DNA of 33,237 bases from a virus (IMGVR_UViG_2609459797_000007), one strand, 5' to 3'. Positions 8,171 through 33,237 are shown, counted from the stretch's first letter. Notes: generated by a model not told the origin, from the sequence alone. Numbers and translations: made by a program.

Positions 8171-8597
8171 AATTCACCAGGCAATAAAAACTGAGATATT
8201 TTGGGTCGAAATCTTCAATTTCAACACCATTGTCATTCACCGGAACTTCATTATTAGTCATGAAGTTATTGTACTCGTCCTGATGAATGTCAATTCGTTC
8301 ATTATCAACCATCTCATAACAATATTTGATCTCAAATAAATTAGAATTGCCACCACTAAAAAAGCGGACAATTTCCAATAAGTCGGATGTTTTTTTTGCT
8401 TGAGTAGCAATTTGTAAAGTATGAATAGTATAAATATCAAGCTCAATATTATCAGCAATATAATTTAGTAGGTTGTGATAGTTCTGCAATTTACTCGGTT
8501 TAAAAAAAACCGAGTTTTTGCATAGTTCATCAACCAACTCATGTTGCTTTAAAATAATGGGCAACATTTTTTTATACCGTTCTGCTAAGGATGTCAT
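8157..8597 (-). CDS. Hypothetical protein (146 aa, acidic); second gene of the accessory island
   Basis: ORF overlapping both neighbours (26 nt upstream, 14 nt downstream), consistent with a translationally coupled operon. GGGGTGA RBS 5 nt before the ATG. No recognisable motif. Confidence 0.55.
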   Translation of the reverse strand: MTSLAERYKKMLPIILKQHELVDELCKNSVFFKPSKLQNYHNLLNYIADNIELDIYTIHTLQIATQAKKTSDLLEIVRFFSGGNSNLFEIKYCYEMVDNERIDIHQDEYNNFMTNNEVPVNDNGVEIEDFDPKYLSFYCLVNYDEH

Positions 8598-9651
8598 TTA
8601 TCACCCCATAGTGTGAAACAGTGTCGGCCATTTTATTAAAATAAAAAGCACCACAGAATTGATTGTTTGCCCAGTCATTTTTATTAGGTTCAAATCCTAT
8701 TTCATTCGATAACGATTCTGAACCAATTTTATAATCAAAACGAGCAGAAACACCACATACCTTCAAATTGGATATAGTTGAAGTTGAAGTATTGCCTTTA
8801 TTCGTCTCAACCACTTTTCTGTTTCTGGCGTCATAACTAGGTTTCGTTCTACATTTAAGGCTAGCATCCTCATCACCAACAGGATCGACGAAATCTACCT
8901 GCACTAATCGGCCAAAGGAAGCATCGTTGTATATATTATTAATTGCTTTATAAAAATTGACAGTTTCTAAATTTAAAGAAACATTGTTTTCAGACAAAAA
9001 CTCTAAAAACTTAATTCTTAAATCAGTAATTGCTCGTTCGAAAACGCGACGACCAAGTTTACGATCAACCCTATATTCAACACGACTTAAGTCATTAGGA
9101 ATGAAAACTGTATTGAAAAATTGAACAGGGTATTGGTTTGAGCGTAATTTACTTCTCCCACTGATTTTCTTAATTAACACATAAGAAAAGATAATTGCTA
9201 CACCATCTCCCATGTTTTCGACAGAAGTAATGAAATGCCCTGGTGAAGCAGGTAGTCCACTATCTTCATCAAGCTTCATAGGGAATGCATCACGAAAACA
9301 TTTTTCATAATTAGAATAATTAGCAAACTGAGAAATAGCTTTAAGGTTTCCACCTCGAATAAAATCAATAGCATAGTAATGATTTACAGAGGTTATTATT
9401 TTTAGCAATAATAATTTGAGAGACGCCTCAGTTGCAAGCTTATGAGCCATTCCAGGATTAGAAAGCGTTCGTATGATACTGTCTTTAGTTCCTGCCCATC
9501 GGGTTCCGATCTGGAATCCATAAGGTGTTCCTACGCGACGAAAAAATCCTAATTCTTCAGTTTGCTCAAGAGAAGTAAGAATCTTTTCAACTTCTTTTTG
9601 GTTAAATGTAGGCGCAGATTGGGTGGCTCCAAGCGCAGTTTGAGTAGTCAT
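8572..9651 (-). CDS. Hypothetical protein (359 aa); first gene of the accessory island
   Basis: Long AT-rich ORF with no P-loop, no HUH and no TIR-like pattern that I can see. Sits between A and cos, where P2 carries tin/old. Confidence 0.6.
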   Translation of the reverse strand: MTTQTALGATQSAPTFNQKEVEKILTSLEQTEELGFFRRVGTPYGFQIGTRWAGTKDSIIRTLSNPGMAHKLATEASLKLLLLKIITSVNHYYAIDFIRGGNLKAISQFANYSNYEKCFRDAFPMKLDEDSGLPASPGHFITSVENMGDGVAIIFSYVLIKKISGRSKLRSNQYPVQFFNTVFIPNDLSRVEYRVDRKLGRRVFERAITDLRIKFLEFLSENNVSLNLETVNFYKAINNIYNDASFGRLVQVDFVDPVGDEDASLKCRTKPSYDARNRKVVETNKGNTSTSTISNLKVCGVSARFDYKIGSESLSNEIGFEPNKNDWANNQFCGAFYFNKMADTVSHYGVINDILSRTV

Positions 9652-12961: not shown

Positions 12962-12988
12962 TGTGGGCTTTCTCTGACAACTAAAACG
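12962..12988. promoter_or_regulatory. Late promoter element: TGT-N12-ACA dyad (12962-12979) within the conserved 18-mer TCTCTGACAACTAAAACG (12971-12988), in the divergent P/O region
   Basis: TGT-N12-ACA is the established binding element for the Ogr family at P2 late promoters. The same 18-mer recurs at 30614-30631. Confidence 0.6.
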
Positions 12989-20917: not shown

Positions 20918-21524
20918 CAGTCTGTTGCCACCTTCAGCCAGTGATTTTATGCGCGGTGCAGAGGCCGCAACATGGCGCGTGAGTGGTTTACCCGTAGGCC
21001 TGAAAACGTTGTGGAACCCTGATGAATGCCCGGTTGCTTTACTGCCTTATCTGGCTTGGGCGTTATCGGTTGATCGCTGGGATAAAGGCTGGTCAGAACA
21101 GACAAAGCGACAGGTGATTAAATCCGCCTGGCTGGTACACAGGCAAAAGGGAACTATCGCGGCGCTGCGCCGTGTCGTTGAGCCGTTCGGCTTCCTGATA
21201 AAGGTCGTTGAATGGTGGCAGAACGGAGGCGAGCGGGGAACATTTCAACTTGAAATTGGTGTTTCTGATTCAGGGATTACAGAAGAAACCTATCTCGAGC
21301 TTGAGCGTCTGATCGCTGATGCAAAACCATGCTCACGGCACCTGACCGGCCTTGCTATCAGTCTGCAGACTAAGGGGGCAGCATATGCGCATGCCGGATG
21401 TTATAGCGGCGACGTGATGACAATTTTTCCCTATATGCCTGAAGCCGTAGAAGTCAGTGGCGGGGATTTTTCAGGTGGCGCAATTCACATTATTGATACG
21501 TTAGAGGTAACAAATGGCGGCTAA
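20910..21524 (+). CDS. I: Baseplate/tail protein I
   Basis: About 204-aa ORF; its ATG at 20910 overlaps the J stop; synteny. Confidence 0.8.
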   Translation: MNNSLLPPSASDFMRGAEAATWRVSGLPVGLKTLWNPDECPVALLPYLAWALSVDRWDKGWSEQTKRQVIKSAWLVHRQKGTIAALRRVVEPFGFLIKVVEWWQNGGERGTFQLEIGVSDSGITEETYLELERLIADAKPCSRHLTGLAISLQTKGAAYAHAGCYSGDVMTIFPYMPEAVEVSGGDFSGGAIHIIDTLEVTNGG

Positions 21525-22824
21525 ATTCTTTGCCCTGCTGACTAATCAGGGGGCGGCAAAATTATCAAATATGGCTGCATTGGGTGAGAAGTTAGAAATC
21601 ACCTCGCTCGCAGTTGGTGATGGCGGCGGTACATCACCAACACCAAATCAGGCACAGACAAGGCTGGTTAATGAGGTACGCCGTGCCCAGATTAACTCAC
21701 TGTCAGTGGACGAAAAAAACGATAGTCAGATTATTGCTGAACAGATTATTCCTGAATCCGTTGGCGGGTGGTGGATTCGGGAGATCGGACTCTTTGACGC
21801 TGATGGCATCTTGATTGCTGTAGCCAACTGCCCGGAAACCTATAAAGCGACAACAGAGGAAGGGTCGGGGCGTACACAGGTTATCAGAATGATGCTGACG
21901 GTATCGAGTACAGACGCCGTTACCCTTAAAGTTGATCCTTCAATTGTGCTGGCAACCCGCCAGTATGTTGATAACGCTGTCATTGAAGTGAAGAACTACG
22001 CTGATGGACTCATGCGCAGCCACGAACAGTCGCGCAACCATCCTGATGCAACCACTACGGCTAAAGGTTTTACGCAGCTTAACAGCAGTGTGACGGATGA
22101 CCGCGATACACAATCGGCAACCCCGAAAGCCGTAAAAATTGCGATGGATAACGCGAATGCGCGGTTGGCTAAAGATCGCAATCTCGCCGATTTACCTAAC
22201 CCGGCACTGGCGCGCCAGAATATGCAATTAGGTGATAGCTCGACGAAAAACACCGGTACAACTGCCAATACTGTTGCAGCGGGTGATGATGCACGTATCA
22301 CCGGATCGATGCAGAAAAGCCAAAACGGTGCGGATATTCCAGACGTGGCGAAGTTTCTCCAAAACCTTCGTTTAGGAGCGGGCGCTCCGCCGATAGGAAT
22401 TCCGTTCTTCTGGCCGTCGACTGCAATGCCTAATACGGTTATGGATGAGTGGTCGGATATGGTCTTTTTGAAATGGAATGGCGCAACCTTCTCAGCGACT
22501 GAATACCCTAAACTGGCAAGGATTATTCCAGGACTGAAATTAAATGATGTGCGAGGCGAGTTCCTGCGTATTTGGGATGATGGAAGGGGCGTAGATAACG
22601 GAAGGGGGTTACTCAGCTTTCAGGCAGCAACATCTTTCACACAGTATGCTGGTAACTATGACGTAGGCTCCGGTCATGCAATAGGTAATCATGATGGTGT
22701 AGTCGATTACAGTCCTGGATTTTCCAGATTTCCTTATCCCGGCCCAGCTATTGGTGATGGTGTTAACCATGTAACCGTAAGACCACGTAACATCGCATTT
22801 AACTTTTTAGTAAGGGCTAAATAA
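21514..22824 (+). CDS. H: Tail fibre protein H: constant N-terminal part fused to the currently expressed variable C-terminus
   Basis: 436-aa ORF following I. A recombination site lies inside it (22348-22371), so the C-terminal ~150 aa are part of an invertible segment. Confidence 0.85.
   Translation: MAAKFFALLTNQGAAKLSNMAALGEKLEITSLAVGDGGGTSPTPNQAQTRLVNEVRRAQINSLSVDEKNDSQIIAEQIIPESVGGWWIREIGLFDADGILIAVANCPETYKATTEEGSGRTQVIRMMLTVSSTDAVTLKVDPSIVLATRQYVDNAVIEVKNYADGLMRSHEQSRNHPDATTTAKGFTQLNSSVTDDRDTQSATPKAVKIAMDNANARLAKDRNLADLPNPALARQNMQLGDSSTKNTGTTANTVAAGDDARITGSMQKSQNGADIPDVAKFLQNLRLGAGAPPIGIPFFWPSTAMPNTVMDEWSDMVFLKWNGATFSATEYPKLARIIPGLKLNDVRGEFLRIWDDGRGVDNGRGLLSFQAATSFTQYAGNYDVGSGHAIGNHDGVVDYSPGFSRFPYPGPAIGDGVNHVTVRPRNIAFNFLVRAK
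22348..22371. repeat. Left inversion crossover site (hix/gix-like): TTCTCCAAAACC-TT-CGTTTAGGAG
   Basis: Quasi-palindromic 24-26 bp site inside H; matches the right site at 24161-24185 with a complementary central dinucleotide. Confidence 0.65.
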
Positions 22825-23417
22825 TGACAGTCATTTTCGATAAAGACGGGCTGGCTGTTGAAGCCGGAAGTATTCGTGTTTATTACTTTCATCCTGTGAC
22901 AAAGGAATATGTAGGATGGTCTGACGAATTCATTAATATCGGAGTGAGTATGCCAGGTAACTCTACTAATATTGCTCCGGGGAATGAAGTGGCAGGAGAG
23001 GTTATGGTATTTACAGGAAAAGACTGGAAGCGACAAAAAGACCACCGGGGGGAGACTGTCTGGTCTACTGATGACGGTAGCGCCATCACCGTGAACTACA
23101 TTGGCTCTGTTCATGATGGATACACTAATATTGCGCCATCCACCCCCTACGATAAGTGGGACGGGGAAAAGTGGGTAACGGATACCAAAGCCCAGCACGC
23201 GGCAGATAAAGAAGTAGCAAAACAACAACAGCAATCTCTGATAGATTCAGCAATGGCATCAATCGGCATGATACAGCTTAAATTACAGGCAGGGCGTAAA
23301 TTAACCACTGCTGAAACTACGAGGCTAAATTCTGTTCTGGACTACATTGACGCGGTGGAGGCAACTGATACCAGCACCGCGCCAGATATTAAGTGGCCTC
23401 TTCCCCCGGAGTGGTAG
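22824..23417 (+). CDS. G: Tail fibre assembly (chaperone) protein G, active orientation
   Basis: 197-aa ORF immediately after H; its 3' end converges and overlaps with the alternative chaperone gene on the other strand, as in Mu-type G segments. Confidence 0.8.
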   Translation: MTVIFDKDGLAVEAGSIRVYYFHPVTKEYVGWSDEFINIGVSMPGNSTNIAPGNEVAGEVMVFTGKDWKRQKDHRGETVWSTDDGSAITVNYIGSVHDGYTNIAPSTPYDKWDGEKWVTDTKAQHAADKEVAKQQQQSLIDSAMASIGMIQLKLQAGRKLTTAETTRLNSVLDYIDAVEATDTSTAPDIKWPLPPEW

Positions 23418-23814
23418 GCCAAACGGGTTTTTCGGTATCGACTCGCATCAGTAATACCCTGTATTTTTTCCATTCTGACAAAGCGGCGGTTTCTTCTTCC
23501 GTCGCTACTCCTGCATCAACAGCATCCTGACGCCAGTTAATCTCTGAGTCAGCCCGCATACGTAAGTTGGCCTTTCTTAATTCAGCGACAGCGCTAAGTT
23601 CTTCCTGAGTTGGTGGTGGAATATCTACCCATGCTGGCATTCCTGCTATTACATTTCTGTATTTACCTTCGGGTGGCTCCTGCATGAATTCAGTTGCAAC
23701 AGAGTCTTCTATTTCTATTCCATCGTTTGGCCACTCTCCTGCCTTTTGATAGGACGACTTCAGCTCTACAGGAAAGAAAGCATTTTTCTTGGCACTGAAT
23801 ACATATTTTTGCAT
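23389..23814 (-). CDS. Alternative tail fibre assembly protein (G'), silent orientation within the invertible segment
   Basis: 141-aa ORF on the opposite strand; its start follows the stop of the alternative fibre C-terminus (23816). Confidence 0.7.
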   Translation of the reverse strand: MQKYVFSAKKNAFFPVELKSSYQKAGEWPNDGIEIEDSVATEFMQEPPEGKYRNVIAGMPAWVDIPPPTQEELSAVAELRKANLRMRADSEINWRQDAVDAGVATEEETAALSEWKKYRVLLMRVDTEKPVWPTTPGEEAT

Positions 23815-23815
23815 G

Positions 23816-24172
23816 TTAACGTCCTATAGAAATATAACTAAATCGGTATTGCTGAGAATTGTCACTCGTTGATACACGCCATGACGAATTGCTGATATGT
23901 TCAAAATTTACAGAAAGTACAGGCGTAATCGGTCCAGAAGGATTTGACTGGACGGCATCAGACATGACGCTGATAGAAATCAAGGGTTGAGTCGGAAACG
24001 GTATAGGGAAGTTACCGCTGATAAAACGAGTCGTGTTTCCTGAATATGTACCAAACTGCACAATGTGCCCGCTTGGTAATTTGAACCACCCTGTGCCAGA
24101 TGCAAAAGCGCCCATATCCGGTATCTGATTTGCACCTGTCCCCACCTCTCTTTTTGCTGCTTCTTTCAAACC
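23816..24172 (-). CDS. Alternative tail fibre C-terminal cassette (H'), promoterless and start-less, expressed only after inversion
   Basis: Open frame from the right recombination site down to a stop at 23816, encoding ...GANQIPDMGAFASGTGWFKLPSGHIVQFGTYSGNTTRF.... The junction sequence parallels the H junction (FLQN versus FLNV). Confidence 0.65.
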   Translation of the reverse strand, partial: GLKEAAKREVGTGANQIPDMGAFASGTGWFKLPSGHIVQFGTYSGNTTRFISGNFPIPFPTQPLISISVMSDAVQSNPSGPITPVLSVNFEHISNSSWRVSTSDNSQQYRFSYISIGR

Positions 24173-24185
24173 AACGTTTAAGAAA
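24161..24185. repeat. Right inversion crossover site (hix/gix-like): TTCTTTCAAACC-AA-CGTTTAAGAAA
   Basis: Resembles hixL (TTCTTGAAAACCAAGGTTTTTGATAA) as I recall it. Located about 55 bp upstream of the invertase start codon. Confidence 0.65.
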
Positions 24186-24240
24186 ATGCAGATTTGCACC
24201 CTGGCTGGCATCATTCCGGCTTTTGCATGAGGGAAAGCAA

Positions 24241-24810
24241 ATGCAGGTTGGCTATGTACGCGTATCAACAAATGACCAAAACACTGCATTACAGCGTGAC
24301 GCGCTGGAGCGCTCAGGATGTAAGCTGATATTTGAAGATAAAATAAGCGGCAAAACGTCAGATAGACCGGGGCTGAAGAAATTATTAAAAAGCCTGTCTC
24401 CAGGGGACACGCTTGTTGTTTGGAAGCTGGATCGGCTTGGACGAAGTATGCGGCACCTGGTTGTACTTGTGGAGGAGTTGCGCCAGCGATCGGTAAATTT
24501 CCAAAGCCTGACGGATAGTATTGATACATCAACTCCTATGGGGCGCTTTTTCTTTCATGTTATGGGGGCGCTAGCTGAAATGGAGCGTGAATTGATTGTT
24601 GAGAGGACGCGAGCGGGCCTGAAGACTGCCAGAGAGCAGGGGAGGATTGGCGGGCGTCGCCCAAAGCTATCTGATGATCAGTGGGCGCAAGCGGGGCGGT
24701 TGATTGCTGCCGGTGAGACTCGCCAGCGGGTTGCCTTGCTTTTTGATGTCGGGATATCGACGTTATACAAAAAATTCCCCGCCACGGTGAGGGTTGAGGC
24801 GGGGAAATGA
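24241..24810 (+). CDS. Serine DNA invertase (Hin/Gin/Cin/Pin family)
   Basis: N-terminal MQVGYVRVSTNDQN (catalytic Ser), GDTLVVWKLDRLGRS and a C-terminal HTH. Start taken at the internal ATG 24241; the track's 24100 start would run through the crossover site. Confidence 0.9.
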   Translation: MQVGYVRVSTNDQNTALQRDALERSGCKLIFEDKISGKTSDRPGLKKLLKSLSPGDTLVVWKLDRLGRSMRHLVVLVEELRQRSVNFQSLTDSIDTSTPMGRFFFHVMGALAEMERELIVERTRAGLKTAREQGRIGGRRPKLSDDQWAQAGRLIAAGETRQRVALLFDVGISTLYKKFPATVRVEAGK

Positions 24811-24829
24811 AAGCCAGTAATGCAGTTGT

Positions 24830-25318
24830 TTAGAACAGGCTTGATGCGGCAGCGCTGATATTATTCAGCGCTGAGTTGGCTGTGTTTTGTAGGTTGCCGA
24901 GTAGGTCACTCACTGATGAAGACTGGAGGCTTTCGCGCAGGTCTTCATCTTGCCTTTGAAACGTGATCGTAAACTCTATTTTCTTCGGCTCCCCATACTG
25001 GTCAAATTCAGTATCGGTGGTCTGAAGCTGTGTTATCGAATACATGCCATATATCCGCCCGGTGCCGCTGATAAGAGGCCAGGGGCGTCCGGTGTATGCC
25101 TGTGTATCGAGCACAGTTAGACTCACCTTACCGCCGGTCACTGATGGGTACAAAACGCCGGATAGTGTGATTTGATCGTCACCCGCGCCAATGTATTGCC
25201 ACTTTGCCGATCGGTTTATGCGTTCGTTCTTCACATGCCGCCAGGTCTTTGACTGCTGCAACTGTTGGTGGGGAACGGTTTTTAACTCAAAGACGAACAT
25301 TCCGTAAACCATCATCAT
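24830..25318 (-). CDS. U: Tail protein U
   Basis: 162-aa ORF; MMMVYGMFVFELKTVPHQ...GVLYPSVTGGK...WPLISGTGRIYGMY agrees closely with my memory of P2 gpU (MMLALGMFVF...GVLYPELTGGK...WPLLDGTGMIYGMY). Confidence 0.85.
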   Translation of the reverse strand: MMMVYGMFVFELKTVPHQQLQQSKTWRHVKNERINRSAKWQYIGAGDDQITLSGVLYPSVTGGKVSLTVLDTQAYTGRPWPLISGTGRIYGMYSITQLQTTDTEFDQYGEPKKIEFTITFQRQDEDLRESLQSSSVSDLLGNLQNTANSALNNISAAASSLF

Positions 25319-25330
25319 TGTTTTGCTCTC

Positions 25331-28300
25331 CTAATCTTTGTCTCTGAAACTGCTACCAGAGCGGGAACGTTTGTTTAGTTCCGCCCCAACTGCATCAGCC
25401 ACCATCCGTGCAATGTCGCGGGCGTCGTTGCTGAGATTGCCGTGCATATGAATGTGAATATGCATTTCATCAGGCGCGGTGTTTTGCGCCGGTTTGCTGG
25501 CTTGTTTACTGGATTGCCCGCCAATAGCCTGTACTTCAGCCGCCGGTTTAATCGGTGCTGATGCCGCTGCGATAACCGGGCGCGCGCTAAGTTGGGCCAG
25601 GTTAGCGCCTGGGGCGGATTGCGCTTCCTGCCATGCGCCGTGGACGGCTAATGCGCGGGGCAGATTTTTAAACACAATATCGCCGGGGCCGATCCGCTTT
25701 TTGGTTTCATCCAGCATCCCGCCGGTGTTGTCGGCAATTTTCTGTAACCGCCGTTGCGTTCCTGTATCAGCGGCAATTACTGGTGATGGTGGGGTGGAGG
25801 CGGCTGGTTTATCGTCACTTTTTGGTGACCAGTTCCATTCCTTTTTCACCATCTTTTTCTGTTTGTCGTCCCATTCCCACGCTACCGGCTCTTTTGTCAG
25901 TGCCTGAGCTTTTGCGTGTGCCGCGTCGATGCCGTCAGGGATGATGTCCAGCTTTTTCAGTATCCAGATGATCATGTTAGCCAGCCCGGTCAGAGGCAGC
26001 ATTAGTCCCTGAATTGCCAGGCCAAGCACTTTGCCGAACGTCTCCCCAGCGCTTGCGCATTTATCAAGCGTCTCTTTGCTGGTTGTCATTGGTGAAAGCA
26101 GGTTGCTGAACCACTGCCACAACTGAGAAACGGCATTTGAGATCACATCAAAGACGGGGGCCAGTCCGGCGAAGGCATCACGGAACGGCGTAAGCGCCTG
26201 CATTACACCGGCAAAGAAGCCCGCAAAGAAGGCTTTGATCGGCTCCCAGAATCGCCAGATAAGCAACCCTGTGGCAATGAAGGCCGCGCCAATCAGCCCG
26301 ATCGGGCTTAACAGCAATGACAGTGCACCGCCGAGCACTGAGAGGGCCGAGCTAGCGATCCCCATGATTGCAGGTATACCGGTCAGGCGGAGCAGGAGAC
26401 TAGAAAGCCCTTTTACAATTCCTCCCAAGGCGGCACCTGGCGAGATAAACGCGGCGGCAAGCAGCCCGCGCAATGGGGCAAGCGCGCCAGCCAGTTTTCC
26501 GGCGTTGCCGGTCATGCTACTGAAGACAATGCCCCAGCCACGGACGCCGCCAAGCGGCCCGGATATAACGCCAGACAGGCGGCTGAAAAGTGTCACCGCG
26601 CCACCCAGCCCGCTCCCGCTGGTTAGCAGGGCAAAGCCGAGTTGAAGTTTTGCCAGTGGCCCCAGAAGTAAGCCAATAGCCAGGGATGTTGCGCCAATCC
26701 CGGCGGTAAGGGCCAGCGCACTCCCGCCAACAGCCAGAAGGGTTTTTGATAGCTGCGGATTCTTATTTGCCCATTCAGTCATCACGCCGATCGTGCCGGT
26801 CAGTGCCTGGGTGAGTTTCCGAAGTGCGCCGTCCGCCAGTTCTTCAATCTGGATACGGAATGCTTCCCAGGCGCTATCGAGTTCTTTTAGATCTCCGCCC
26901 AGGTTGTCCGCCATTTTTTTTGCGACGGTAGCGGATTCACCGGCAGCGCCCTGAAGTTCTTTTGTGAGCTTTTGTAGCTCTCCCGAACCTGCCGCCTGTA
27001 CCAGTGTCTGAAGGCCCACAAAGGCCTCTTCACCGGCGATGTTTTTGAAGAAAGATACCTGATCAACCTGCCCGTATTTCTTCGTGGCTTTGAAAAGGTC
27101 TAACAGTACCGTTTCCATCGGGCGCATTTTCCCGTTGGCGTCGGCAACCGACACGCCTAGCTCTTTCAGAGCATCAGCTGCGGCTTTTGGTGGTGAAGCA
27201 AGGCGGGATAGGCTGGAACGTAATGCTGTACCCGCGTCACTGCCGCGCAGACCGTTATTGGCAAGCATACCCGCCATCGCTGAGGCCTGTTCAAGGCTAA
27301 TCCCCAGATTAGCCGCCACTGGCCCCGCGTATTTCATTGTGTCGCCCAGGGCGCGCAGGTCGGTATTGGTACGGGTAAAAGCGGCGGTTAACGTATCGCC
27401 AACCCTGTCCATCTGATCTGATGACAGCTTGAATTGGGTCAGGATGTTTGAACCGATATCAGCGGATTCACCCAGATCCATGCCACCGGCTAGCGCCATA
27501 TTCAGAACGCCAGGCAACGCGGCCTGAATTGACTGTGGTGTAAAGCCAGCCATTGCTAAGAAGGCTTGCCCGCTGGCGGCGTCTCGCGTGGTAAATGCGG
27601 TTTCAGCGCCAAGTTTTTTGGCCTGGGCGCGGAGGGCGGCAAATTGTTCATCGCCTTTGTCCAGGCGAGTCAGTGCGCCTACGCGCGACATTTCCTCATC
27701 AAAACCAACAGCAGGGGCCAGGAAGCGCCCGGCGGCGTAACCCGCCCCCGCGCTTGCGCCAACTGCCATTGCGCCGCCGGTGCGTAATTTGCCCGCTGTG
27801 GTGCTCAGTCGGTCGTAACGGGCGCGCGCATTGGTCACGGCGGCAAGTTGTCGCCGTTCTCTCTCAAGCGCCTGGTTGTATTGCTCAGTGCGTCTGATGG
27901 CGCTTTGAATTGTGCGATCACCGCCAGCCAGCGAGACGCCGTGCGCGCGCAGTGCCTGGGACGCTTGCTGGAGTTTTGCGGTTTCCTGTGACCGGCTGGC
28001 ATTCAGGCGATCAAGTTTTGCCGCCAGCGCTGTCATGCGCTCGCGCTGCGCGTCGGTCAGAACGGTGCCGGTCTTCTGGGCTTTATTCAGGCCATCAAAA
28101 GCGCGCTGTGTTGTGGTGAGTTGCTGGGCTGTCTTTTTAACGCGCTCATTCAGGCGGTTGAATGCCTGGGATTGCGTTTCCAGATCCTTGATAGAGGACT
28201 GTGTCTTTTTGAGGGATTCTGATAAGCCGCCCACTGAGTTACGAGCGGCATTTACCGGGCGGGTTAACTTATCAATCGCACTGAAGGCGACACGGATATT

Positions 28301-28348
28301 AAGGTCTTTCATCTTCACTGTTTCCGCTTCGGATAGCCGCCCGTTCAC
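25331..28348 (-). CDS. T: Tail tape measure protein T
   Basis: 1005-aa ORF, Ala/Gly-rich with coiled-coil N-terminus and hydrophobic glycine-rich central segments, located between E/E' and U. Longer than P2 T as I recall it (about 815 aa). Confidence 0.85.
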   Translation of the reverse strand: MNGRLSEAETVKMKDLNIRVAFSAIDKLTRPVNAARNSVGGLSESLKKTQSSIKDLETQSQAFNRLNERVKKTAQQLTTTQRAFDGLNKAQKTGTVLTDAQRERMTALAAKLDRLNASRSQETAKLQQASQALRAHGVSLAGGDRTIQSAIRRTEQYNQALERERRQLAAVTNARARYDRLSTTAGKLRTGGAMAVGASAGAGYAAGRFLAPAVGFDEEMSRVGALTRLDKGDEQFAALRAQAKKLGAETAFTTRDAASGQAFLAMAGFTPQSIQAALPGVLNMALAGGMDLGESADIGSNILTQFKLSSDQMDRVGDTLTAAFTRTNTDLRALGDTMKYAGPVAANLGISLEQASAMAGMLANNGLRGSDAGTALRSSLSRLASPPKAAADALKELGVSVADANGKMRPMETVLLDLFKATKKYGQVDQVSFFKNIAGEEAFVGLQTLVQAAGSGELQKLTKELQGAAGESATVAKKMADNLGGDLKELDSAWEAFRIQIEELADGALRKLTQALTGTIGVMTEWANKNPQLSKTLLAVGGSALALTAGIGATSLAIGLLLGPLAKLQLGFALLTSGSGLGGAVTLFSRLSGVISGPLGGVRGWGIVFSSMTGNAGKLAGALAPLRGLLAAAFISPGAALGGIVKGLSSLLLRLTGIPAIMGIASSALSVLGGALSLLLSPIGLIGAAFIATGLLIWRFWEPIKAFFAGFFAGVMQALTPFRDAFAGLAPVFDVISNAVSQLWQWFSNLLSPMTTSKETLDKCASAGETFGKVLGLAIQGLMLPLTGLANMIIWILKKLDIIPDGIDAAHAKAQALTKEPVAWEWDDKQKKMVKKEWNWSPKSDDKPAASTPPSPVIAADTGTQRRLQKIADNTGGMLDETKKRIGPGDIVFKNLPRALAVHGAWQEAQSAPGANLAQLSARPVIAAASAPIKPAAEVQAIGGQSSKQASKPAQNTAPDEMHIHIHMHGNLSNDARDIARMVADAVGAELNKRSRSGSSFRDKD

Positions 28349-28771
28349 GCCAGGCTATCACCTCACTCAGGGACATAGTGAAAACCTCTGAGGGCGGCCA
28401 GTTGAAAATAACTGCAATGTCAGCAACCAGATCATCGATCAGGTCAAAGTGGGGTGCGATTACTCGCTCTCCGTCTCCGTCTCGCTCTTCGTGCCAGGCT
28501 CCTTCGGTGCCAAAAAAGGCGTTAGCACCTCACAAAGTTCAACAAAGTCAGATGTTTCCATTTCGCTGATTTCTTTGAGCTTCAGGCGTGGGGAGGTGCA
28601 GCGGGTTAACAGGGTGCTGATGCTGTCCACGTCCATATTCATGACGTTCACCAGGCGAAGGCCGCGCAGGGTGCCAGCCTGTTTTACTTCGTCAGTAATC
28701 GTGACGGTTTTGATATCTTCGTCGCCACGGGAAATCCAGCGGGTCAGTGTTACGGTGTTTTCTTTGGTCAT
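28299..28771 (-). CDS. Tail assembly chaperone E+E' (programmed -1 frameshift product)
   Basis: E frame 28771..28460; slippery heptamer T TTT TTG on the minus strand at + coordinates 28517..28511, encoding Phe-Leu. The -1 frame stays open from there to a TAA at 28301..28299, overlapping the T start. Confidence 0.6.
28460..28771 (-). CDS. E: Tail assembly chaperone E
   Basis: 103-aa ORF between FII and T; acidic C-terminus; size and position match P2 gpE. Confidence 0.8.
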   Translation of the reverse strand: MTKENTVTLTRWISRGDEDIKTVTITDEVKQAGTLRGLRLVNVMNMDVDSISTLLTRCTSPRLKLKEISEMETSDFVELCEVLTPFLAPKEPGTKSETETESE

Positions 28772-28825
28772 TGTTTTAATCTCCGAGCGGCATCATCACG
28801 ACGCCGCACCTGTAGTGGTTGTTTG

Positions 28826-29338
28826 TTACCCCATGCCCAGCGCAGACATCACGCGGGAAGGGTAAATATTTTCGCCGTTGCGTTTGTAGACGAAGTTAAG
28901 CAAGTCGATTTCCCATAGGGGTTTATCGTCAATTGACAGCTTGTAGTACGTGTTTTTAATGGCGTAGGTCACGGATGTGTCTTCACCCTGTTTGCTTTCG
29001 CCGCCGTCGATTTCAGTGAACTTGCCGCGCATTTCCACATCAACGATCTGGCTCTCGCCAGACGTGTAATACTCCCCGGTAAAGCGGATTAGCGTACCGT
29101 CCAGATCGCCGCCGTACTCCAGAAGTAGAGCCTGAACCAGACCGCCAACAACCATCGTTGCATCAAGTGCGCCGCTATCCAGTCCGAGATCGACGGCAAC
29201 GGAACCAATCATGCCGCCGCCCTGGTAGTCTTCCGTTTTCCGGGTCAGTTTTGGCAGCGTCACAGATGTCACTTTGCCGATATTGTTTACGCTGTTCACG
29301 AAGCAGGTGAACAGCCGCAATTTTGCTGGAATCGCCAT
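28826..29338 (-). CDS. FII: Tail tube protein FII
   Basis: 170-aa ORF directly downstream of the sheath gene; size and synteny match P2 FII. Confidence 0.85.
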   Translation of the reverse strand: MAIPAKLRLFTCFVNSVNNIGKVTSVTLPKLTRKTEDYQGGGMIGSVAVDLGLDSGALDATMVVGGLVQALLLEYGGDLDGTLIRFTGEYYTSGESQIVDVEMRGKFTEIDGGESKQGEDTSVTYAIKNTYYKLSIDDKPLWEIDLLNFVYKRNGENIYPSRVMSALGMG

Positions 29339-30529
29339 TTAGTTACTCCCCAGAGACGAAAACGCGCCTTCAAAATATTCATCGGTGAACGTCTGGATCA
29401 GCGTTAAATCTTCCATCGGCGGTACTGGCGTATACTTGTAACGGATCGCCACTTTTCCCTGAATCAGGTTTGCGGTCGGGTTGTCCACAATGTCAAACCA
29501 CGCCTCCGCGCCAAGCAGCTTGCCAGCGGTCACAAGTGCGCTGAGTTTCTTGTTAATTGCACTCACCACGTCTTTCACGTTGGTTGGGGTAAGTGGCCCG
29601 TCAACGGTTTCAAACTGTGCCTCTGCGATGGTGTCCGCCAGGATTTGCGCCGTACGGGTGTACACCTCAAAAGTAAATTCATTGGTGTCAGTGGTGCGGT
29701 TGCCCCAGAAGCGGAAGCCGTTACGCTTGATGATGGTGGTGATTTCATCGTTGTTCAGCGTCTGGGCGTCGCTGTCTTCAGCCTGGAGCGCCCAGAAAAC
29801 GTCCTTCGACATGCCAAGCACGTTACTGACGGCGATGTTAGACAGAGAACGATGCCAGCCGTATTGGTTGTCAATAAACGCGCGCAGCCCTACCGCATAG
29901 GCTGGGGCGGGAAACTCTTCATTTGCCCCGGACACCTGGTTATAGGCAATGTAGTTAGGCCAGATCAGCATGAGTTCACGTGATGCGAAGGTTTCACGAT
30001 ATTGCCGGGCCTCTGCCAGTGTGTTGCAGCCGTTACAGCCAGCATAAACAAAGGCGCGAAGCTGTTTGGCGATCACGCAAAGCTGTGATGTTACTTCTTC
30101 GGTATCGTATTCCGGCACCGCCAGGACGCGCGGGCGATATCCCGTTTTTTGTTCGGCGGTCAGTAGCGCATACATGCCGGTGTAGTTACCGTCAGCATCA
30201 GAGCCACCAATAATCAACTGCGACTGTGTTTCCGCCGTTTTCCCTTCCTCCGGCGGTTTAGCCGTGGCAACACGAACAACAATGATTTTCGCGCTTGCCT
30301 GGTCTGAAATAGCTTTCAGTGTTTTGTACAACGTCCCTGTTTTCCCTGCCTTGCCGAGCATCGACTGAGGCCGCGTGATAAGCGTTGGGATGTTAAGTGG
30401 GAAAGCGTCTTCGTCTGCGTCATCAGCGACGACAATCACGCCAATGACGCTGGAGTCAATGTCGTTAATTACCCTCGTGATGTCGGTTTCTTCTTTGGTG
30501 CGAGCACCGTGAAAACGTGTCTCAGACAT
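29339..30529 (-). CDS. FI: Contractile tail sheath protein FI
   Basis: About 396-aa ORF; matches my memory of P2 FI along its length (FPLN.P.LIT, GTLY/GTLA, KLRAF, RELM.IWP, GWH.TLSN, GFRFWGNRT, NYTRTAQ..ADT.AEA, KY.YTPVPP.E.LTL). ATG 30529 preferred over 30541. Confidence 0.9.
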   Translation of the reverse strand: MSETRFHGARTKEETDITRVINDIDSSVIGVIVVADDADEDAFPLNIPTLITRPQSMLGKAGKTGTLYKTLKAISDQASAKIIVVRVATAKPPEEGKTAETQSQLIIGGSDADGNYTGMYALLTAEQKTGYRPRVLAVPEYDTEEVTSQLCVIAKQLRAFVYAGCNGCNTLAEARQYRETFASRELMLIWPNYIAYNQVSGANEEFPAPAYAVGLRAFIDNQYGWHRSLSNIAVSNVLGMSKDVFWALQAEDSDAQTLNNDEITTIIKRNGFRFWGNRTTDTNEFTFEVYTRTAQILADTIAEAQFETVDGPLTPTNVKDVVSAINKKLSALVTAGKLLGAEAWFDIVDNPTANLIQGKVAIRYKYTPVPPMEDLTLIQTFTDEYFEGAFSSLGSN

Positions 30530-30604
30530 GTTTGTCACCATTACGTTTTGTTGAGTTCGCCACCATGATTGCTGATTGATGTAACGGCTTCACGCCTTTC
30601 TGGT

Positions 30605-30631
30605 TGTGCTATCTCTCTGACAACTAAAACG
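30605..30631. promoter_or_regulatory. Late promoter element: TGT-N12-ACA dyad (30605-30622) with the same 18-mer TCTCTGACAACTAAAACG (30614-30631), in the divergent FI/D region
   Basis: Exact 18-bp identity with the P/O promoter element at 12971-12988, including the Ogr-type dyad. Confidence 0.6.
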
Positions 30632-30682
30632 AATTCTCCCACGCGCGCCCGCGTGGAATTATTCAGCAAAACGGGAGGGTAT

Positions 30683-31816
30683 ATGAGTGTTTCAGTGATC
30701 AGCAGTATGATTTCGGGCGCGGCTGGCGGTGTCGATGACATCCTGACGGAGGCGTTAAAAATACCAGCATTCAGCGTCCGGCAAGGCGGGAAGGTGTTAA
30801 CAGAATTATCAGATCGCGTGATATCCATCAGCCTGACGGACAACCGGGGTTTTGACGCCGATCAGCTGACATTAGAGCTGGATGACACTGATGGAAGCGT
30901 TGCTCTTCCGCCGCGTGGCGCTGAGTTGTCTTTCTGGCTGGGGTGGATGGGTGAAGCGCTGGTTTATAAGGGCATCTACACGGTTGATGAAGTGGCGCAC
31001 GACGGGCCGCCCGACCGTATCACCGTGACCGCCAGAAGTGCAGATTTCAGAGAGGAGTTTAACGTAAAGCGTGAAGTCTCCTGGCATGATGTGACTGTGG
31101 AGCGGGTTGTGTCTGCTATCGCAAAACGGTATGACCTGACGCCGCAAATCAGCGATCTGTTGATGGATGTGGAAATTGACCATGCCGATCAGACTCAGGA
31201 AAGCGATATGTCATTTCTGACCAGAATGGCGGAAATGTTAGGGGCCATCGCCACGGTAAAAAATGGAAGTCTGCTGTTTATCGTGCCGGGTGGTGGTTTC
31301 ACTGCATCAGGGAAGGCTATTCCGTCGATTGCCATCACGCGCAGCAGTGGAGACCGGCACCGCTTCCGGGTTGCTGATCGTGACGCTTATACCGGCGTCC
31401 GCGCGTACTGGCTTGATCTGAACTACGGGAAAAAGAAAAAGGTTAGCGTTCATCGCCGTGCCACAACGAAAAAAAAGGATAAGAGCAGCAGCAGGGAAGG
31501 TGACTACATTGAAGGCGCTGAAGGTAACGTTTTTATTATGCGTAAAACCTTCCAGAACGAAGAAGCCGCCAGGCGCGCAGCGGCGGCAAAGTGGCAGCAG
31601 TTACAGCGCGGCGCGGCGGAGTTTTCGATCACCCTGGCGCGCGGGCGTGCGGAGTTGTACCCGGAAATGCATTCGACGGTGACCGGTTTTAAGGCAGATA
31701 TTGACGCCCAGGACTGGATAATCAGCAAGGTACAGCATGACGTTGATAGCAACGGATTTACTACACAGCTTAACTTTGAAGCAAAAATATCTGACTGGAT
31801 CGCAGAAACTGAATAG
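30683..31816 (+). CDS. D: Tail protein D (late gene D)
   Basis: About 377-aa ORF preceding ogr. ATG 30683 with a GGGAGGG RBS. Size and position match P2 D. Confidence 0.8.
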   Translation: MSVSVISSMISGAAGGVDDILTEALKIPAFSVRQGGKVLTELSDRVISISLTDNRGFDADQLTLELDDTDGSVALPPRGAELSFWLGWMGEALVYKGIYTVDEVAHDGPPDRITVTARSADFREEFNVKREVSWHDVTVERVVSAIAKRYDLTPQISDLLMDVEIDHADQTQESDMSFLTRMAEMLGAIATVKNGSLLFIVPGGGFTASGKAIPSIAITRSSGDRHRFRVADRDAYTGVRAYWLDLNYGKKKKVSVHRRATTKKKDKSSSREGDYIEGAEGNVFIMRKTFQNEEAARRAAAAKWQQLQRGAAEFSITLARGRAELYPEMHSTVTGFKADIDAQDWIISKVQHDVDSNGFTTQLNFEAKISDWIAETE

Positions 31817-31854: not shown

Positions 31855-32109
31855 ATGTTCAGATGCCCACATTGCGGCGCTACGGCCCGCACACGTACCA
31901 GTAAGCCACTAAACGAAGAGCAAACCATATACAGGCAGTATCACCAGTGCCAGAACATGGAATGCGGATTGTCATTCACCACGCTTAACAGCGTTGAAAA
32001 GATAGTCACTAAACGTGAGCGCCGCGAAGAGTTATCCCCTGATTTTATCCCTGCCGGTGTTTTTCCTGCCTCGCATTACGGACGCGATCAGCTAAATTTA
32101 GCGATATAA
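31855..32109 (+). CDS. ogr: Late transcription activator Ogr (zinc-finger)
   Basis: 84-aa ORF with CPHCG...CQNMECG (C-x2-C...C-x4-C); MFRCPHCGATARTRTSK is the typical Ogr/delta N-terminus. Last prophage gene before the host junction. Confidence 0.9.
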   Translation: MFRCPHCGATARTRTSKPLNEEQTIYRQYHQCQNMECGLSFTTLNSVEKIVTKRERREELSPDFIPAGVFPASHYGRDQLNLAI

Positions 32110-32334: not shown

Positions 32335-33237
32335 ATGAATCAATCTTATGGACGGCTGGTCAGTCGGGCGGCGATTGCTGCGACGGCGATGGCTTCGCTG
32401 CTATTGCTGATTAAAATTTTTGCATGGTGGTATACCGGGTCGGTGAGTATTCTCGCCGCGCTGGTGGATTCGCTGGTGGATATCGGCGCGTCGTTGACGA
32501 ATTTATTGGTGGTGCGATATTCCCTGCAACCTGCCGACGATAATCACTCGTTTGGTCACGGTAAAGCTGAGTCCCTCGCGGCGCTGGCGCAAAGTATGTT
32601 TATCTCCGGTTCGGCACTATTCCTGTTTTTGACGGGTATTCAACATCTGATATCTCCAACACCGATGACAGATCCAGGCGTCGGGGTTATCGTGACAATT
32701 GTGGCGCTAATTTGTACGATTATCCTTGTCTCGTTTCAGCGTTGGGTGGTGCGGCGGACGCAAAGCCAGGCGGTGCGGGCTGATATGCTACATTACCAGT
32801 CTGATGTTATGATGAACGGCGCAATTCTGCTGGCGCTGGGGTTGTCCTGGTACGGCTGGCATCGCGCCGATGCTCTGTTTGCATTGGGAATCGGCATCTA
32901 TATTTTATATAGCGCGTTACGCATGGGATATGAGGCGGTACAGTCATTACTGGATCGCGCATTGCCTGATGAGGAACGGCAAGAAATTATTGATATCGTG
33001 ACTTCCTGGCCGGGTGTTAGCGGCGCTCACGATCTTCGCACGCGGCAGTCAGGGCCGACCCGCTTTATTCAGATTCATTTGGAAATGGAAGACTCTCTGC
33101 CTTTGGTTCAGGCACATATGGTGGCGGATCAGGTAGAGCAGGCTATTTTACGGCGTTTTCCGGGATCGGATGTAATTATCCATCAGGACCCCTGTTCCGT
33201 CGTACCCAGGGAGGGTAAACGGTCTATGCTTTCATAA
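32335..33237 (+). CDS. fieF: Cation-efflux pump FieF/YiiP (cation diffusion facilitator family); host chromosomal gene
   Basis: About 300-aa ORF; the translation ([58 protein letters not shown]...) matches enterobacterial FieF as I recall it. Multiple TM helices and a C-terminal cytoplasmic domain. Start taken at ATG 32335. Confidence 0.9.

What the first reader, a model, noticed from the sequence alone, without database searches (positions are those of the whole stretch)
22348..24810. Hin/Gin-type invertible tail-fibre switch in a P2-like prophage
Two quasi-palindromic 24-25 bp sites with complementary central dinucleotides (TT at 22360-22361, AA at 24173-24174) bracket about 1.8 kb containing the H C-terminus and G on one strand and an alternative G' and H' C-terminus on the other. 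A serine invertase gene starts about 55 bp past the right site. P2 itself has a fixed tail fibre as far as I recall, so this phage would alternate host range by inversion as Mu and P1 do.
Basis: partly seen in the sequence, partly recalled or inferred. Interest (0 to 1): 0.55.

Follow-up and report, generated by a model that had tools for sequence, protein, structure and literature searches.

The report
Invertible tail-fibre switch, P2-like prophage
This is a working copy of a classic, well-described phage device: a Gin/Cin/Pin-family DNA invertase that flips a 1.8-kb segment so the prophage makes one of two alternative tail-fibre tips, and it is ordinary rather than new.

Summary
Two 26-bp hix/gix-like crossover sites (22355-22380, central TT at 22367-68; 24161-24186, central AA at 24173-74) are the only such sites in the window. 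They bracket 1.8 kb holding Hv+G on one strand and G'+H'v on the other. A 189-aa serine invertase (24241-24810, about 76% identical to Mu Gin, catalytic Ser9 intact) starts 54 nt past the right site.

A public E. coli contig (L007) equals the window with exactly this segment flipped: 2 mismatches in 12,594 bp, and the exchange maps to the central dinucleotide. The predicted 403-aa H' fusion exists as WP_097471511.1.

Across 82 distinct invertase genes, synonymous sites are frozen in two 12-nt patches 48 nt apart (24265-76, 24313-24). This is the expected Fis enhancer signature.

The element is a full P2-like prophage next to fieF. The same layout is known in Fels-2 (Fin), in EPEC and EC958 prophages, and in about 50 IMG/VR P2-like loci.

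Side findings: the cassette is 99.9% identical in unrelated phage backbones, with homology ending at the crossover sites, and the FI-U tail block is reversed relative to P2.

Verdict: interpretation supported, novelty low.

The parts
21514..22366 (+). Constant part of tail-fibre gene H (codons 1-284 and the first base of codon 285). It is fused to either variable end.
   Evidence: Pfam Phage_tail_fib (residues 1-150) and Phage_fiber_2. The 285-aa prefix is shared by H and the in-silico H'. Proteins from Salmonella and Citrobacter are 96-99% identical over the constant part but have different C-termini starting right after FLQNL.
22355..22380 (.). Left 26-bp crossover site, TTCTCCAAAACC TT CGTTTAGGAGCG, with central TT at 22367-22368. 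It lies inside H codons 281-289.
   Evidence: The junction in the naturally flipped copy L007 places the exchange within the TT.
22369..22824 (+). Hv: the variable C-terminal 151 residues of H, expressed in the orientation present in the window (full H is 436 aa).
   Evidence: ORF 21514-22824. The exact 436-aa protein is seen on 8 public contigs.
22824..23417 (+). G: tail-fibre assembly chaperone cognate to Hv (197 aa).
   Evidence: Pfam Caudo_TAP, E = 7e-25. Its ATG overlaps the H stop codon.
23389..23814 (-). G': the alternative tail-fibre assembly chaperone (141 aa). It is silent in the window's orientation.
   Evidence: Pfam Caudo_TAP, E = 4.5e-31. It starts 1 nt after the H'v stop codon.
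23816..24172 (-). H'v: the alternative variable C-terminus (118 aa, plus the stop codon at 23816-23818). After inversion it is fused in frame to the H constant part, giving a 403-aa H'.
   Evidence: Pfam Gp53-like_C. In-silico inversion. The exact 403-aa protein is in public E. coli genomes as WP_097471511.1, on 3 contigs. It is also encoded in L007.
24161..24186 (.). Right 26-bp crossover site, TTCTTTCAAACC AA CGTTTAAGAAAA, with central AA at 24173-24174. Its centre is 67 nt upstream of the invertase ATG, the same distance as Mu gixR from gin.
24241..24810 (+). Serine DNA invertase of the Gin/Cin/Pin/Fin family, 189 aa. It lies outside the invertible segment.
   Evidence: Pfam Resolvase + HTH_7. 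E = 1e-83 to Mu Gin structures 3UJ3/4M6F over residues 1-182, with Ser9 aligned to the Gin catalytic Ser. It is 81% identical to the Fels-2 invertase and 76% to P1/P7 Cin. The Fis-contact residues Q150, R153, L154 and the basic residues K46, K47, K50 are present, read from the sequence against PMC3798978.
24259..24326 (.). Inferred recombinational (Fis) enhancer inside the 5' end of the invertase gene. It contains two constrained 12-nt patches, 24265-24276 and 24313-24324, set 48 nt apart. The proximal patch is about 97 bp from the right crossover point.
   Evidence: The extent corresponds to nt 19-86 of P7 cin, annotated there as 'enhancer' (alignment). Synonymous-codon identity across 82 distinct invertase genes is 0.95-1.00 at codons 9-12 and 0.81-0.96 at codons 25-28, against a gene-wide mean of 0.44. 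Fis binding itself was not tested.

Best explanation
This is a Gin/Cin/Pin/Fin-type site-specific inversion switch that alternates the receptor-binding end of the tail fibre of an apparently complete P2-like prophage of E. coli, integrated beside fieF.

How it works: the late operon V-W-J-I-H-G reads into the segment. In the window's orientation it makes H (285 constant + 151 variable residues) and chaperone G. The invertase binds as dimers to the two 26-bp sites. It is activated by Fis bound to the enhancer inside its own 5' coding region. It cuts both sites with a 2-bp stagger at the central TT/AA, rotates, and religates. This inverts 1,808 bp (22367-24174). The operon then makes H' (the same 285 residues plus a 118-residue gp53-like tip) and chaperone G'. 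A lysogen population therefore releases two virion types with different adsorption specificity.

Shown here: the sites, the reading frames, the intact invertase, the existence of both orientations with junctions at the central dinucleotide, and DNA-level constraint at two patches 48 nt apart.

Inferred from the family: Fis dependence, the rotation mechanism, and that the two tips recognise different receptors or hosts.
For: - Only two hix-type sites occur in the window, against 0 expected by chance. They have the same geometry as Mu gixL/gixR and about 60 related loci: a proximal site at -67 with central AA or GA, and a distal site 1.4-3.1 kb upstream with central TT or TC.
- In-silico inversion of 22367-24174 gives an in-frame 403-aa H'.
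- Contig L007 (Logan SRR5330880) is colinear with the in-silico flipped window over 12,594 bp with 2 mismatches, both outside the segment. Both junction sequences are exact. The bases flanking the TT differ between the two parental sites, so the exchange maps to the dinucleotide.
- Exact H is on 8 public contigs and exact H' on 3.
- The invertase matches Gin at E = 1e-83 with Ser9 present and has Resolvase + HTH_7 domains. The Fis-contact and basic helix-B residues named in PMC3798978 are present.
- Enhancer: synonymous identity is 0.81-1.0 in two 4-codon patches 48 nt apart, against 0.44 gene-wide. These are the only such patches in the gene. They lie within the stretch homologous to the annotated P7 cin enhancer.
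- The same layout occurs in Fels-2. Experimental switching in E. coli prophages is reported in PMC4272514 and PMC4134206.
Against: - No sigma-70 consensus promoter was found upstream of the invertase, so its expression is assumed.
- The distal constrained patch in the window differs from the family consensus at 2 of 12 positions (TCAGGATGTAAG versus GCAGGATGTGAG).
- Both patches lie in a conserved part of the protein. One covers the catalytic Ser codon.
- The flipped copy comes from a different sample, so switching within one culture is not shown.
- Invertases of this family act in trans (PMC12529663, PMC4134206), so the observed flip could have been made by another resident invertase.
- No receptor or host-range data exist for either tip.
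Confidence: 0.9

Rival explanations
1. The sites are functional, but the cis-encoded invertase is silent or weak. Inversion in this prophage would then be driven mainly in trans by other resident Din-family invertases such as PinE, PinQ, PinR, or those of other prophages.
For: No promoter consensus lies upstream of the gene. Trans action between prophages is documented: PinQ inverts the e14 P segment and Fin of Fels-2 inverts the H segment (PMC12529663). In EC958, the Phi4 segment flips despite a truncated invertase (PMC4134206). Related invertases are very common, with 593 confirmed relatives in IMG/VR alone.
Against: The gene is full length with all catalytic and Fis-contact residues. It is 100% conserved in all copies of this prophage that were fetched. 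The region between the right site and the ATG is conserved with relatives. The geometry of the site at -67 matches that of Mu gin.
Confidence: 0.07
2. The switch serves the host rather than the phage. One orientation would produce a tail-fibre protein that masks a surface receptor and blocks superinfecting phages, as reported for the e14 StfE2 chimera.
For: PMC12529663 shows such a role for the related 1.8-kb e14 P segment. The G'/H'v half of the cassette is about 75-77% identical at the DNA level to e14 pinE-region genes in many E. coli genomes.
Against: Here the switch sits in an apparently complete P2-like prophage, inside the late V-W-J-I-H-G operon, with both chaperones intact. In a lysogen these late genes are expected to be silent, which follows from established P2 biology. 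The classical host-range role explains everything seen.
Confidence: 0.03
3. The opposite orientation in L007 is an assembly artefact or the product of homologous recombination, not of site-specific inversion.
For: L007 is a short-read assembly from an unrelated sample.
Against: The two sites share only 16 of 26 positions in inverted orientation. That is too little for an assembler or RecA to exchange. The contig reads through both junctions. The exchange maps to the 2-bp centre. The exact H' protein is also present in independent NCBI E. coli genomes.
Confidence: 0.01

Closest known systems
Fels-2 prophage (Felsduovirus) Fin invertase and its tail-fibre segment, Salmonella LT2
   Same: It is a P2-like phage with the identical order I, H, G, G'(-), H'(-), invertase(+). 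Its invertase is 81% identical to the window's. It has a proximal site at -67 and a distal site upstream. Fin is reported to be active on the Salmonella H segment (PMC12529663, citing Kutsukake 2006).
   Different: The Fels-2 segment is about 2.7 kb with a GA/TC core, against 1.8 kb with AA/TT here. The cassette sequences show no detectable nucleotide similarity. In Fels-2 the invertase is followed by FI on the same strand. Here it is followed by a reversed U-T-E-FII-FI block.
Phage Mu Gin / G segment (S-U / U'-S')
   Same: The invertase is about 76% identical, lies outside the segment and has the same Ser9. The right site sits at the same -67 position and aligns with gixR. A constant N-terminus is fused to alternative C-termini plus cognate chaperones. 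The enhancer lies within the 5' end of the gene (Kahmann 1985, cited in PMC3798978).
   Different: Mu is a transposable phage with a different tail-fibre constant part. Its G segment is about 3 kb with a GA/TC core.
P1/P7 Cin / C segment
   Same: The invertase is 76% identical. The annotated cin enhancer (nt 19-86 of cin) is homologous to 24259-24326. It has 26-bp cix sites with a 2-bp crossover.
   Different: The C segment is 4.2 kb. cin lies on the other side, with cixL overlapping the 3' end of cin.
e14 Pin / P segment of E. coli K-12, and prophage switches of E. coli EC958 and EPEC E2348/69
   Same: The segment is about 1.8 kb (1,797 bp in e14) with stf/tfa pairs in mirror image and a gp53-like tip (PMC12529663). 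Both orientations coexist in cultures, and the sites are 26-bp crossover sites (PMC4134206, PMC4272514). Two of the three EPEC loci are in P2-like prophages (PMC4272514).
   Different: e14 is a defective lambdoid remnant. The window's element is a complete P2-like prophage.
Salmonella Hin / H segment
   Same: It belongs to the same Fis/enhancer-dependent invertase subclass. It has 26-bp sites with an AA/TT core, and its enhancer is about 100 bp from the nearest site (PMC3798978). Here that distance is about 97 bp.
   Different: hin lies inside the segment and the flip moves a promoter for flagellin genes. Here the invertase is outside the segment and coding C-termini are exchanged.

Membership tests
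Fis/enhancer-dependent DNA invertase systems (Gin, Cin, Pin, Hin, Fin; 'Din' family) | A small serine recombinase with an N-terminal resolvase catalytic domain and a C-terminal HTH domain | tested here: met
   Pfam Resolvase (E = 2e-50) and HTH_7 (E = 2e-12), 189 aa.
Fis/enhancer-dependent DNA invertase systems (Gin, Cin, Pin, Hin, Fin; 'Din' family) | The catalytic serine and close sequence similarity to characterised invertases | tested here: met
   Ser9 aligns with the Gin catalytic Ser (4M6F has S; 3UJ3 is the S9A crystal form). E = 1e-83 over residues 1-182. Identity is 76% to Cin and 81% to Fels-2 Fin.
Fis/enhancer-dependent DNA invertase systems (Gin, Cin, Pin, Hin, Fin; 'Din' family) | Two 26-bp imperfectly palindromic crossover sites in inverted orientation, defined by complementary central dinucleotides | tested here: met
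   Sites at 22355-22380 (TT) and 24161-24186 (AA). They are the only matches in the window, against 0 in shuffles. They fit the Sandmeier consensus quoted in PMC4134206.
Fis/enhancer-dependent DNA invertase systems (Gin, Cin, Pin, Hin, Fin; 'Din' family) | Strand exchange at the central 2 bp, producing both orientations | tested here: met
   L007 equals the window with 22367-24174 flipped, with 2 mismatches in 12,594 bp and recombinant half-sites on either side of the TT and AA. Exact H and exact H' proteins are both public.
Fis/enhancer-dependent DNA invertase systems (Gin, Cin, Pin, Hin, Fin; 'Din' family) | A recombinational enhancer with two Fis sites about 48 bp apart, inside the 5' part of the invertase gene. 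The 48-bp spacing is from established knowledge (Johnson, Glasgow and Simon 1987). | tested here: met
   There are two patches of near-absolute synonymous conservation, at codons 9-12 and 25-28, whose starts are 48 nt apart. They are the only such patches among 82 distinct genes. They lie within the stretch homologous to the annotated P7 cin enhancer. This is comparative evidence only. The window's distal patch has 2 deviations from the consensus.
Fis/enhancer-dependent DNA invertase systems (Gin, Cin, Pin, Hin, Fin; 'Din' family) | Invertase residues that contact Fis and the enhancer (Hin Q151, R154, L155; basic residues 47, 48, 51) | tested here: met
   The window protein has Q150, R153, L154 and K46, K47, K50, with numbering one less than Hin. 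This was read from the translation against PMC3798978.
Fis/enhancer-dependent DNA invertase systems (Gin, Cin, Pin, Hin, Fin; 'Din' family) | Dependence on Fis, on negative supercoiling and on cis configuration; switching within a clonal culture | not testable with these tools
   There are hints only. One draft E. coli contig ends 2 nt before the central TT. Several deposited 'partial' H proteins stop at residues 279-285. Both would be expected if the sequenced cultures contained mixed orientations.
Hin-type promoter-flip switch | The invertase gene lies inside the invertible segment, and the inversion moves a promoter | tested here: not met
   The invertase at 24241-24810 lies outside the segment 22367-24174. 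The inversion exchanges coding C-termini and chaperones.
Multiple-inversion systems (p15B Min, shufflon-like) | More than two crossover sites giving more than two variants | tested here: not met
   Only two sites occur in the window. Some related loci (L017, L065, L066, L068) do have three.
P2-like phages (Peduoviridae) | The P2 gene set: int, C, cox, A; Q, P, O, N, M, L; lysis genes; R, S, V, W, J, I, H, G; FI, FII, E, T, U, D; ogr | tested here: met
   Pfam hits to P2-specific families include Phage_GPA, Phage_Cox, Phage_GPO, Phage_cap_P2, Phage_GPL, Phage_tail_S, Tail_P2_I, Phage_P2_GpU, Phage_GPD and Ogr_Delta. P2_Phage_GpR, LysC and tail X were identified in identical loci.
P2-like phages (Peduoviridae) | The canonical F operon order FI-FII-E-E'-T-U-D on one strand, downstream of H-G | tested here: not met
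   FI through U (24830-30541) is on the minus strand, while D and ogr are on the plus strand. P2 and Fels-2 are colinear. This concerns the backbone, not the switch.

The most novel reading that the evidence does not exclude
The 1.8-kb invertible segment behaves as a portable receptor-binding cassette that is swapped whole between unrelated phage backbones at the crossover sites themselves.

The 1,804 bp between the two central dinucleotides is 99.9% identical in two other P2-like prophages (L008, L009) and in a Mu-like prophage (L010). In all three, the adjacent 400 bp of the tail-fibre constant part has no detectable nucleotide similarity. On the invertase side, identity is 74-75% in L008 and L009 and there is no match in L010.

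If the exchanges are catalysed by the invertases acting between sites of co-resident prophages, rather than by homologous recombination in the short conserved site region, then Din sites are docking points for horizontal transfer of host-range modules and not only flip points.

A weaker companion idea is that the reversed FI-U tail block next to the invertase (24830-30541) records an old invertase-mediated macro-inversion. No sites remain at its borders to support this.
Probability: 0.3. Interest if true: 0.4.

Novelty: new member of a known kind. Interest (0 to 1): 0.13.

Why it matters
For annotation, it matters that 23816-24172 is not a pseudogene or a 'hypothetical protein' but the silent alternative end of H. 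It also matters that this prophage has two tail-fibre phenotypes. This affects host-range prediction, phage typing, and assembly of the region, where contigs break at the sites.

For biology it adds nothing new to a mechanism understood since Mu, P1 and Hin. It does provide three things. First, a clean natural pair of both orientations, with the exchange mapped to the central dinucleotide. Second, a simple comparative read-out of the Fis enhancer, as two frozen synonymous patches 48 nt apart. Third, a sharp example of an entire invertible cassette shared at 99.9% identity between unrelated phage backbones.

Tried and rejected
- The generic inverted-repeat search did not report the two sites as a pair. 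They are too dissimilar to each other (16/26), so a consensus pattern had to be used instead.
- Megablast of the H-invertase region against phage records found only one trivial 43-nt match. Against complete E. coli genomes, no record covered 80% or more of the region. This exact prophage is therefore absent from both collections, and relatives had to be found through proteins.
- The predicted H' was not listed at 100% by the homology search because the database is clustered. An exact look-up found it.
- The promoter scan around the invertase found nothing.
- I considered whether the reversed FI-U block (24830-30541) is a second invertase-mediated inversion:
  - There is no hix-like site at either border.
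  - The 25 longest inverted repeats listed for 24700-30800 include none that flanks the block.
  - All canonical-orientation relatives have an FI protein only about 47% identical, so breakpoints cannot be mapped.
  - The reversed layout recurs with a U protein only 51% identical (L025, L037) and in a Klebsiella record.
  - I conclude it is an established backbone variant and leave it as a side note.
- A third core-like match at 75-86 (AAACCATCGTTT, central AT, 13/20 over 26 bp) lies inside the integrase gene. I regard it as chance.
- The paper on Fels-2 Fin (PMC1347348) is not held. It is cited only through PMC12529663 and PMC4272514.
- A multiple-inversion (Min-like) system was rejected because only two sites are present.


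Full report
**1. What is in the sequence**

The window is IMG/VR contig IMGVR_UViG_2609460356_000007. It is an apparently complete P2-like prophage.

- Early and replication genes: integrase, HTH repressor, Cox, Dam methylase, gpA.
- Head genes: portal Q, terminase P, scaffold O, capsid N, small terminase M, head completion L.
- Lysis genes, R, S, V, W, J, I, H, G.
- Tail genes: sheath FI, tube FII, E, tape measure T, U, D and Ogr.
- The host gene fieF follows at 32335-33237.

Tail-fibre gene H runs 21514-22824 (436 aa; Phage_tail_fib + Phage_fiber_2). G (22824-23417) is a Caudo_TAP chaperone. On the opposite strand lie a second Caudo_TAP chaperone, G' (23389-23814), and an open frame whose last 118 codons (23816-24172) carry a Gp53-like_C domain. 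A 189-aa Resolvase + HTH_7 protein is encoded at 24241-24810.

**2. The sites**

A 26-bp hix-type palindromic pattern matches only at two places:

- 22355-22380, TTCTCCAAAACC TT CGTTTAGGAGCG
- 24161-24186, TTCTTTCAAACC AA CGTTTAAGAAAA

None of 100 shuffles gave a match. Both sites score 17/20 against the consensus, and the next best position in 33 kb scores 14/20.

The left central TT is at 22367-68, not 22360-61.

The right site aligns base for base with Mu gixR. Its centre lies 67 nt before the invertase ATG, exactly as in Mu, Fels-2 and most of about 80 related loci. In those loci the distal site lies 1.4-3.1 kb upstream and carries the complementary core.

**3. Does the flip make sense, and does it happen?**

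Inverting 22367-24174 in silico keeps H in frame. The same 285 N-terminal residues are now followed by GLKEAAKREVGTG... and end in the gp53-like domain (403 aa). G' follows 1 nt after the stop codon.

An exact look-up of protein G returned the same prophage from several assemblies. One of them, L007, has G in the opposite orientation relative to I, J and the invertase, and has a called 403-aa H'.

L007 is colinear with the in-silico flipped window over 12,594 bp, with 2 mismatches, both outside the segment. Both recombinant junctions are exact. The bases immediately flanking the central dinucleotide differ between the two parental sites, so the exchange maps to the 2-bp centre. That is the signature of serine-invertase cleavage.

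The sites share too little sequence (16/26) for assembler confusion or RecA-driven exchange.

The exact H protein is on 8 public contigs. The exact H' is on 3 and is in RefSeq as WP_097471511.1.

There are also hints of mixed orientations within sequenced cultures. A draft E. coli contig stops 2 nt before the central TT. Several deposited 'partial' H proteins end at residues 279-285.

**4. The invertase and its enhancer**

The protein matches Mu Gin structures at E = 1e-83 over residues 1-182, with Ser9 in place. It is 81% identical to the Fels-2 invertase and 76% to P1/P7 Cin. It has the residues that PMC3798978 identifies as specific to Fis/enhancer-dependent invertases: Q150, R153, L154, and basic residues at 46, 47 and 50.

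To test for the enhancer independently of protein conservation, I aligned 82 distinct invertase genes (window, IMG/VR, phage and E. coli loci) by codon. I then measured how often identical amino acids use identical codons.

- The gene-wide mean is 0.44 (sd 0.19).
- Codons 9-12 (TCA ACA AAT GAC; 24265-24276) score 0.95-1.00.
- Codons 25-28 (consensus GCA GGA TGT GAG; 24313-24324) score 0.81-0.96.
- These are the only such runs in the gene, and their starts are 48 nt apart.

This spacing matches that of the two Fis sites of the Hin/Gin/Cin enhancers (established knowledge). Both patches lie within the stretch homologous to the annotated P7 cin enhancer.

The proximal patch is about 97 bp from the right crossover point. 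In Hin the corresponding distance is about 100 bp (PMC3798978). The window has the consensus at the proximal patch and two deviations at the distal one.

**5. Mechanism**

The system is a Gin/Cin/Pin/Fin-type C-terminus exchange switch.

- Shown here: the parts, the reading frames, both orientations, the crossover position, and DNA-level constraint at the enhancer.
- Inferred from the family: Fis and supercoiling dependence, subunit rotation, and different receptor specificity of the two tips.

The constant/variable boundary coincides with the left site. Proteins from Salmonella and Citrobacter are 96-99% identical over the constant part and carry unrelated C-termini starting right after FLQNL.

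**6. Comparison with what is known**

- P2 itself has fun(Z), not an invertase, between G and FI.
- The P2-like phage Fels-2 has the same H-G-G'-H'-invertase layout.
- About 50 of the related IMG/VR loci have an invertase followed directly by FI.
- Inversion in P2-like prophages of EPEC was shown by sequencing and PCR (PMC4272514).
- Three prophage switches with 26-bp crossover sites were seen flipping in E. coli EC958 (PMC4134206).
- Invertases are noted as frequent in this P2 hotspot (bioRxiv 10.1101/2024.10.15.618418).
- Trans action and a possible defence role of such segments are described in PMC12529663.

The finding is therefore a new member of a well-known kind.

**7. Side results**

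(a) The 1,804 bp between the central dinucleotides is 99.9% identical in two other P2-like backbones (L008, L009) and a Mu-like one (L010). It is 97% identical in E. coli EcPF16 (L001). In L008, L009 and L010 the neighbouring 400 bp of the H constant part shows no nucleotide match. On the invertase side, identity is 74-75% in L008 and L009, with no match in L010. The cassette is exchanged as a unit, with end points at the sites.

(b) The FI-FII-E-T-U block (24830-30541) is reversed relative to P2 and Fels-2, with D and ogr left on the plus strand. A TGT-N12-ACA dyad at 30605-30622, between FI and D, closely resembles the one in the P/O divergent region at 12962-12979. The layout recurs in diverged relatives. 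No crossover-like sites flank the block.

**8. Verdict**

Novelty and interest are low.

Noticed in passing
window 24830-30541 (minus strand), 30685-31816 and 31855-32109 (plus strand): The tail genes FI, FII, E, E', T and U form a block on the minus strand, convergent with the invertase. D and ogr stay on the plus strand. In P2 and Fels-2, FI through D form one colinear operon. The reversed layout is identical in all copies of this prophage. It recurs with a U protein only 51% identical (L025, L037) and in a Klebsiella record (L096). The FI protein here is only about 47% identical to canonical FI. No hix-like sites flank the block.
   Followed up: partly
window 30605-30622 and 12962-12979: There are two very similar TGT-N12-ACA dyads, TGTGCTATCTCTCTGACA and TGTGGGCTTTCTCTGACA. 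Each lies in a divergent intergenic region, FI/D and P/O respectively. They look like Ogr-type late-promoter activator sites. The first could serve FI leftwards and D rightwards. The bare pattern itself is not enriched in the window (5 found, 7.5 expected).
   Followed up: partly
window 22369-24172; L008, L009, L010 5546-7349; L001 6055-7858: The invertible cassette is 99.9% identical in two other P2-like backbones and a Mu-like prophage, and 97% identical in E. coli EcPF16. Homology ends within a few nucleotides of the central dinucleotides. The flanking tail-fibre constant part has no nucleotide match.
   Followed up: yes
L097 3840-3852 (GCA_049928715.2); proteins P0030, P0122, P0124, P0125, P0127, P0128: A draft-genome contig ends 2 nt before the central TT of the left site. 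Several deposited 'partial' H proteins stop at residues 279-285. This is what an assembler does when both orientations are present in the reads.
   Followed up: partly
L011 (Logan ERR14980459), equivalent to window 21131-22577: One contig of the same prophage lacks 1,447 bp spanning the end of gene I, the H constant part, the left crossover site and the start of Hv. It may be a real deletion that locks the switch, or a misassembly.
   Followed up: no
window 7373-9651 (minus strand): Three ORFs (265, 146 and 359 aa) between replication gene A and the portal gene lie at the P2 accessory/defence hotspot. They have no Pfam or NCBIfam match. The first has a weak hit to the PADLOC candidate PDC-S54 (E = 1e-7).
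   Followed up: partly
window 23389-23417: The convergent chaperone genes G and G' overlap by 29 bp at their 3' ends. The same overlap occurs in L001 and L002. In Mu and Fels-2 the two genes do not overlap.
   Followed up: no
window 24180-24197 and 24235-24252: The sequence just after the right crossover site (AAGAAAATGCAGATTTGC) resembles the invertase start region (AAGCAAATGCAGGTTGGC). The motif GAAAATGCAG after the site is shared with Fels-2 and E. coli QEC11-421. It may be a promoter or operator element, or a relic duplication.
   Followed up: no
L017, L065, L066, L068 (IMG/VR loci): Some related prophages carry three crossover-type sites upstream of the invertase. These are candidate multiple-inversion (Min-like) systems offering three alternative tail-fibre ends.
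   Followed up: no
window 68-93: A weak third core match, AAACCATCGTTT with central AT, lies inside the integrase gene. It scores 13/20 over 26 bp and is probably chance.
   Followed up: partly
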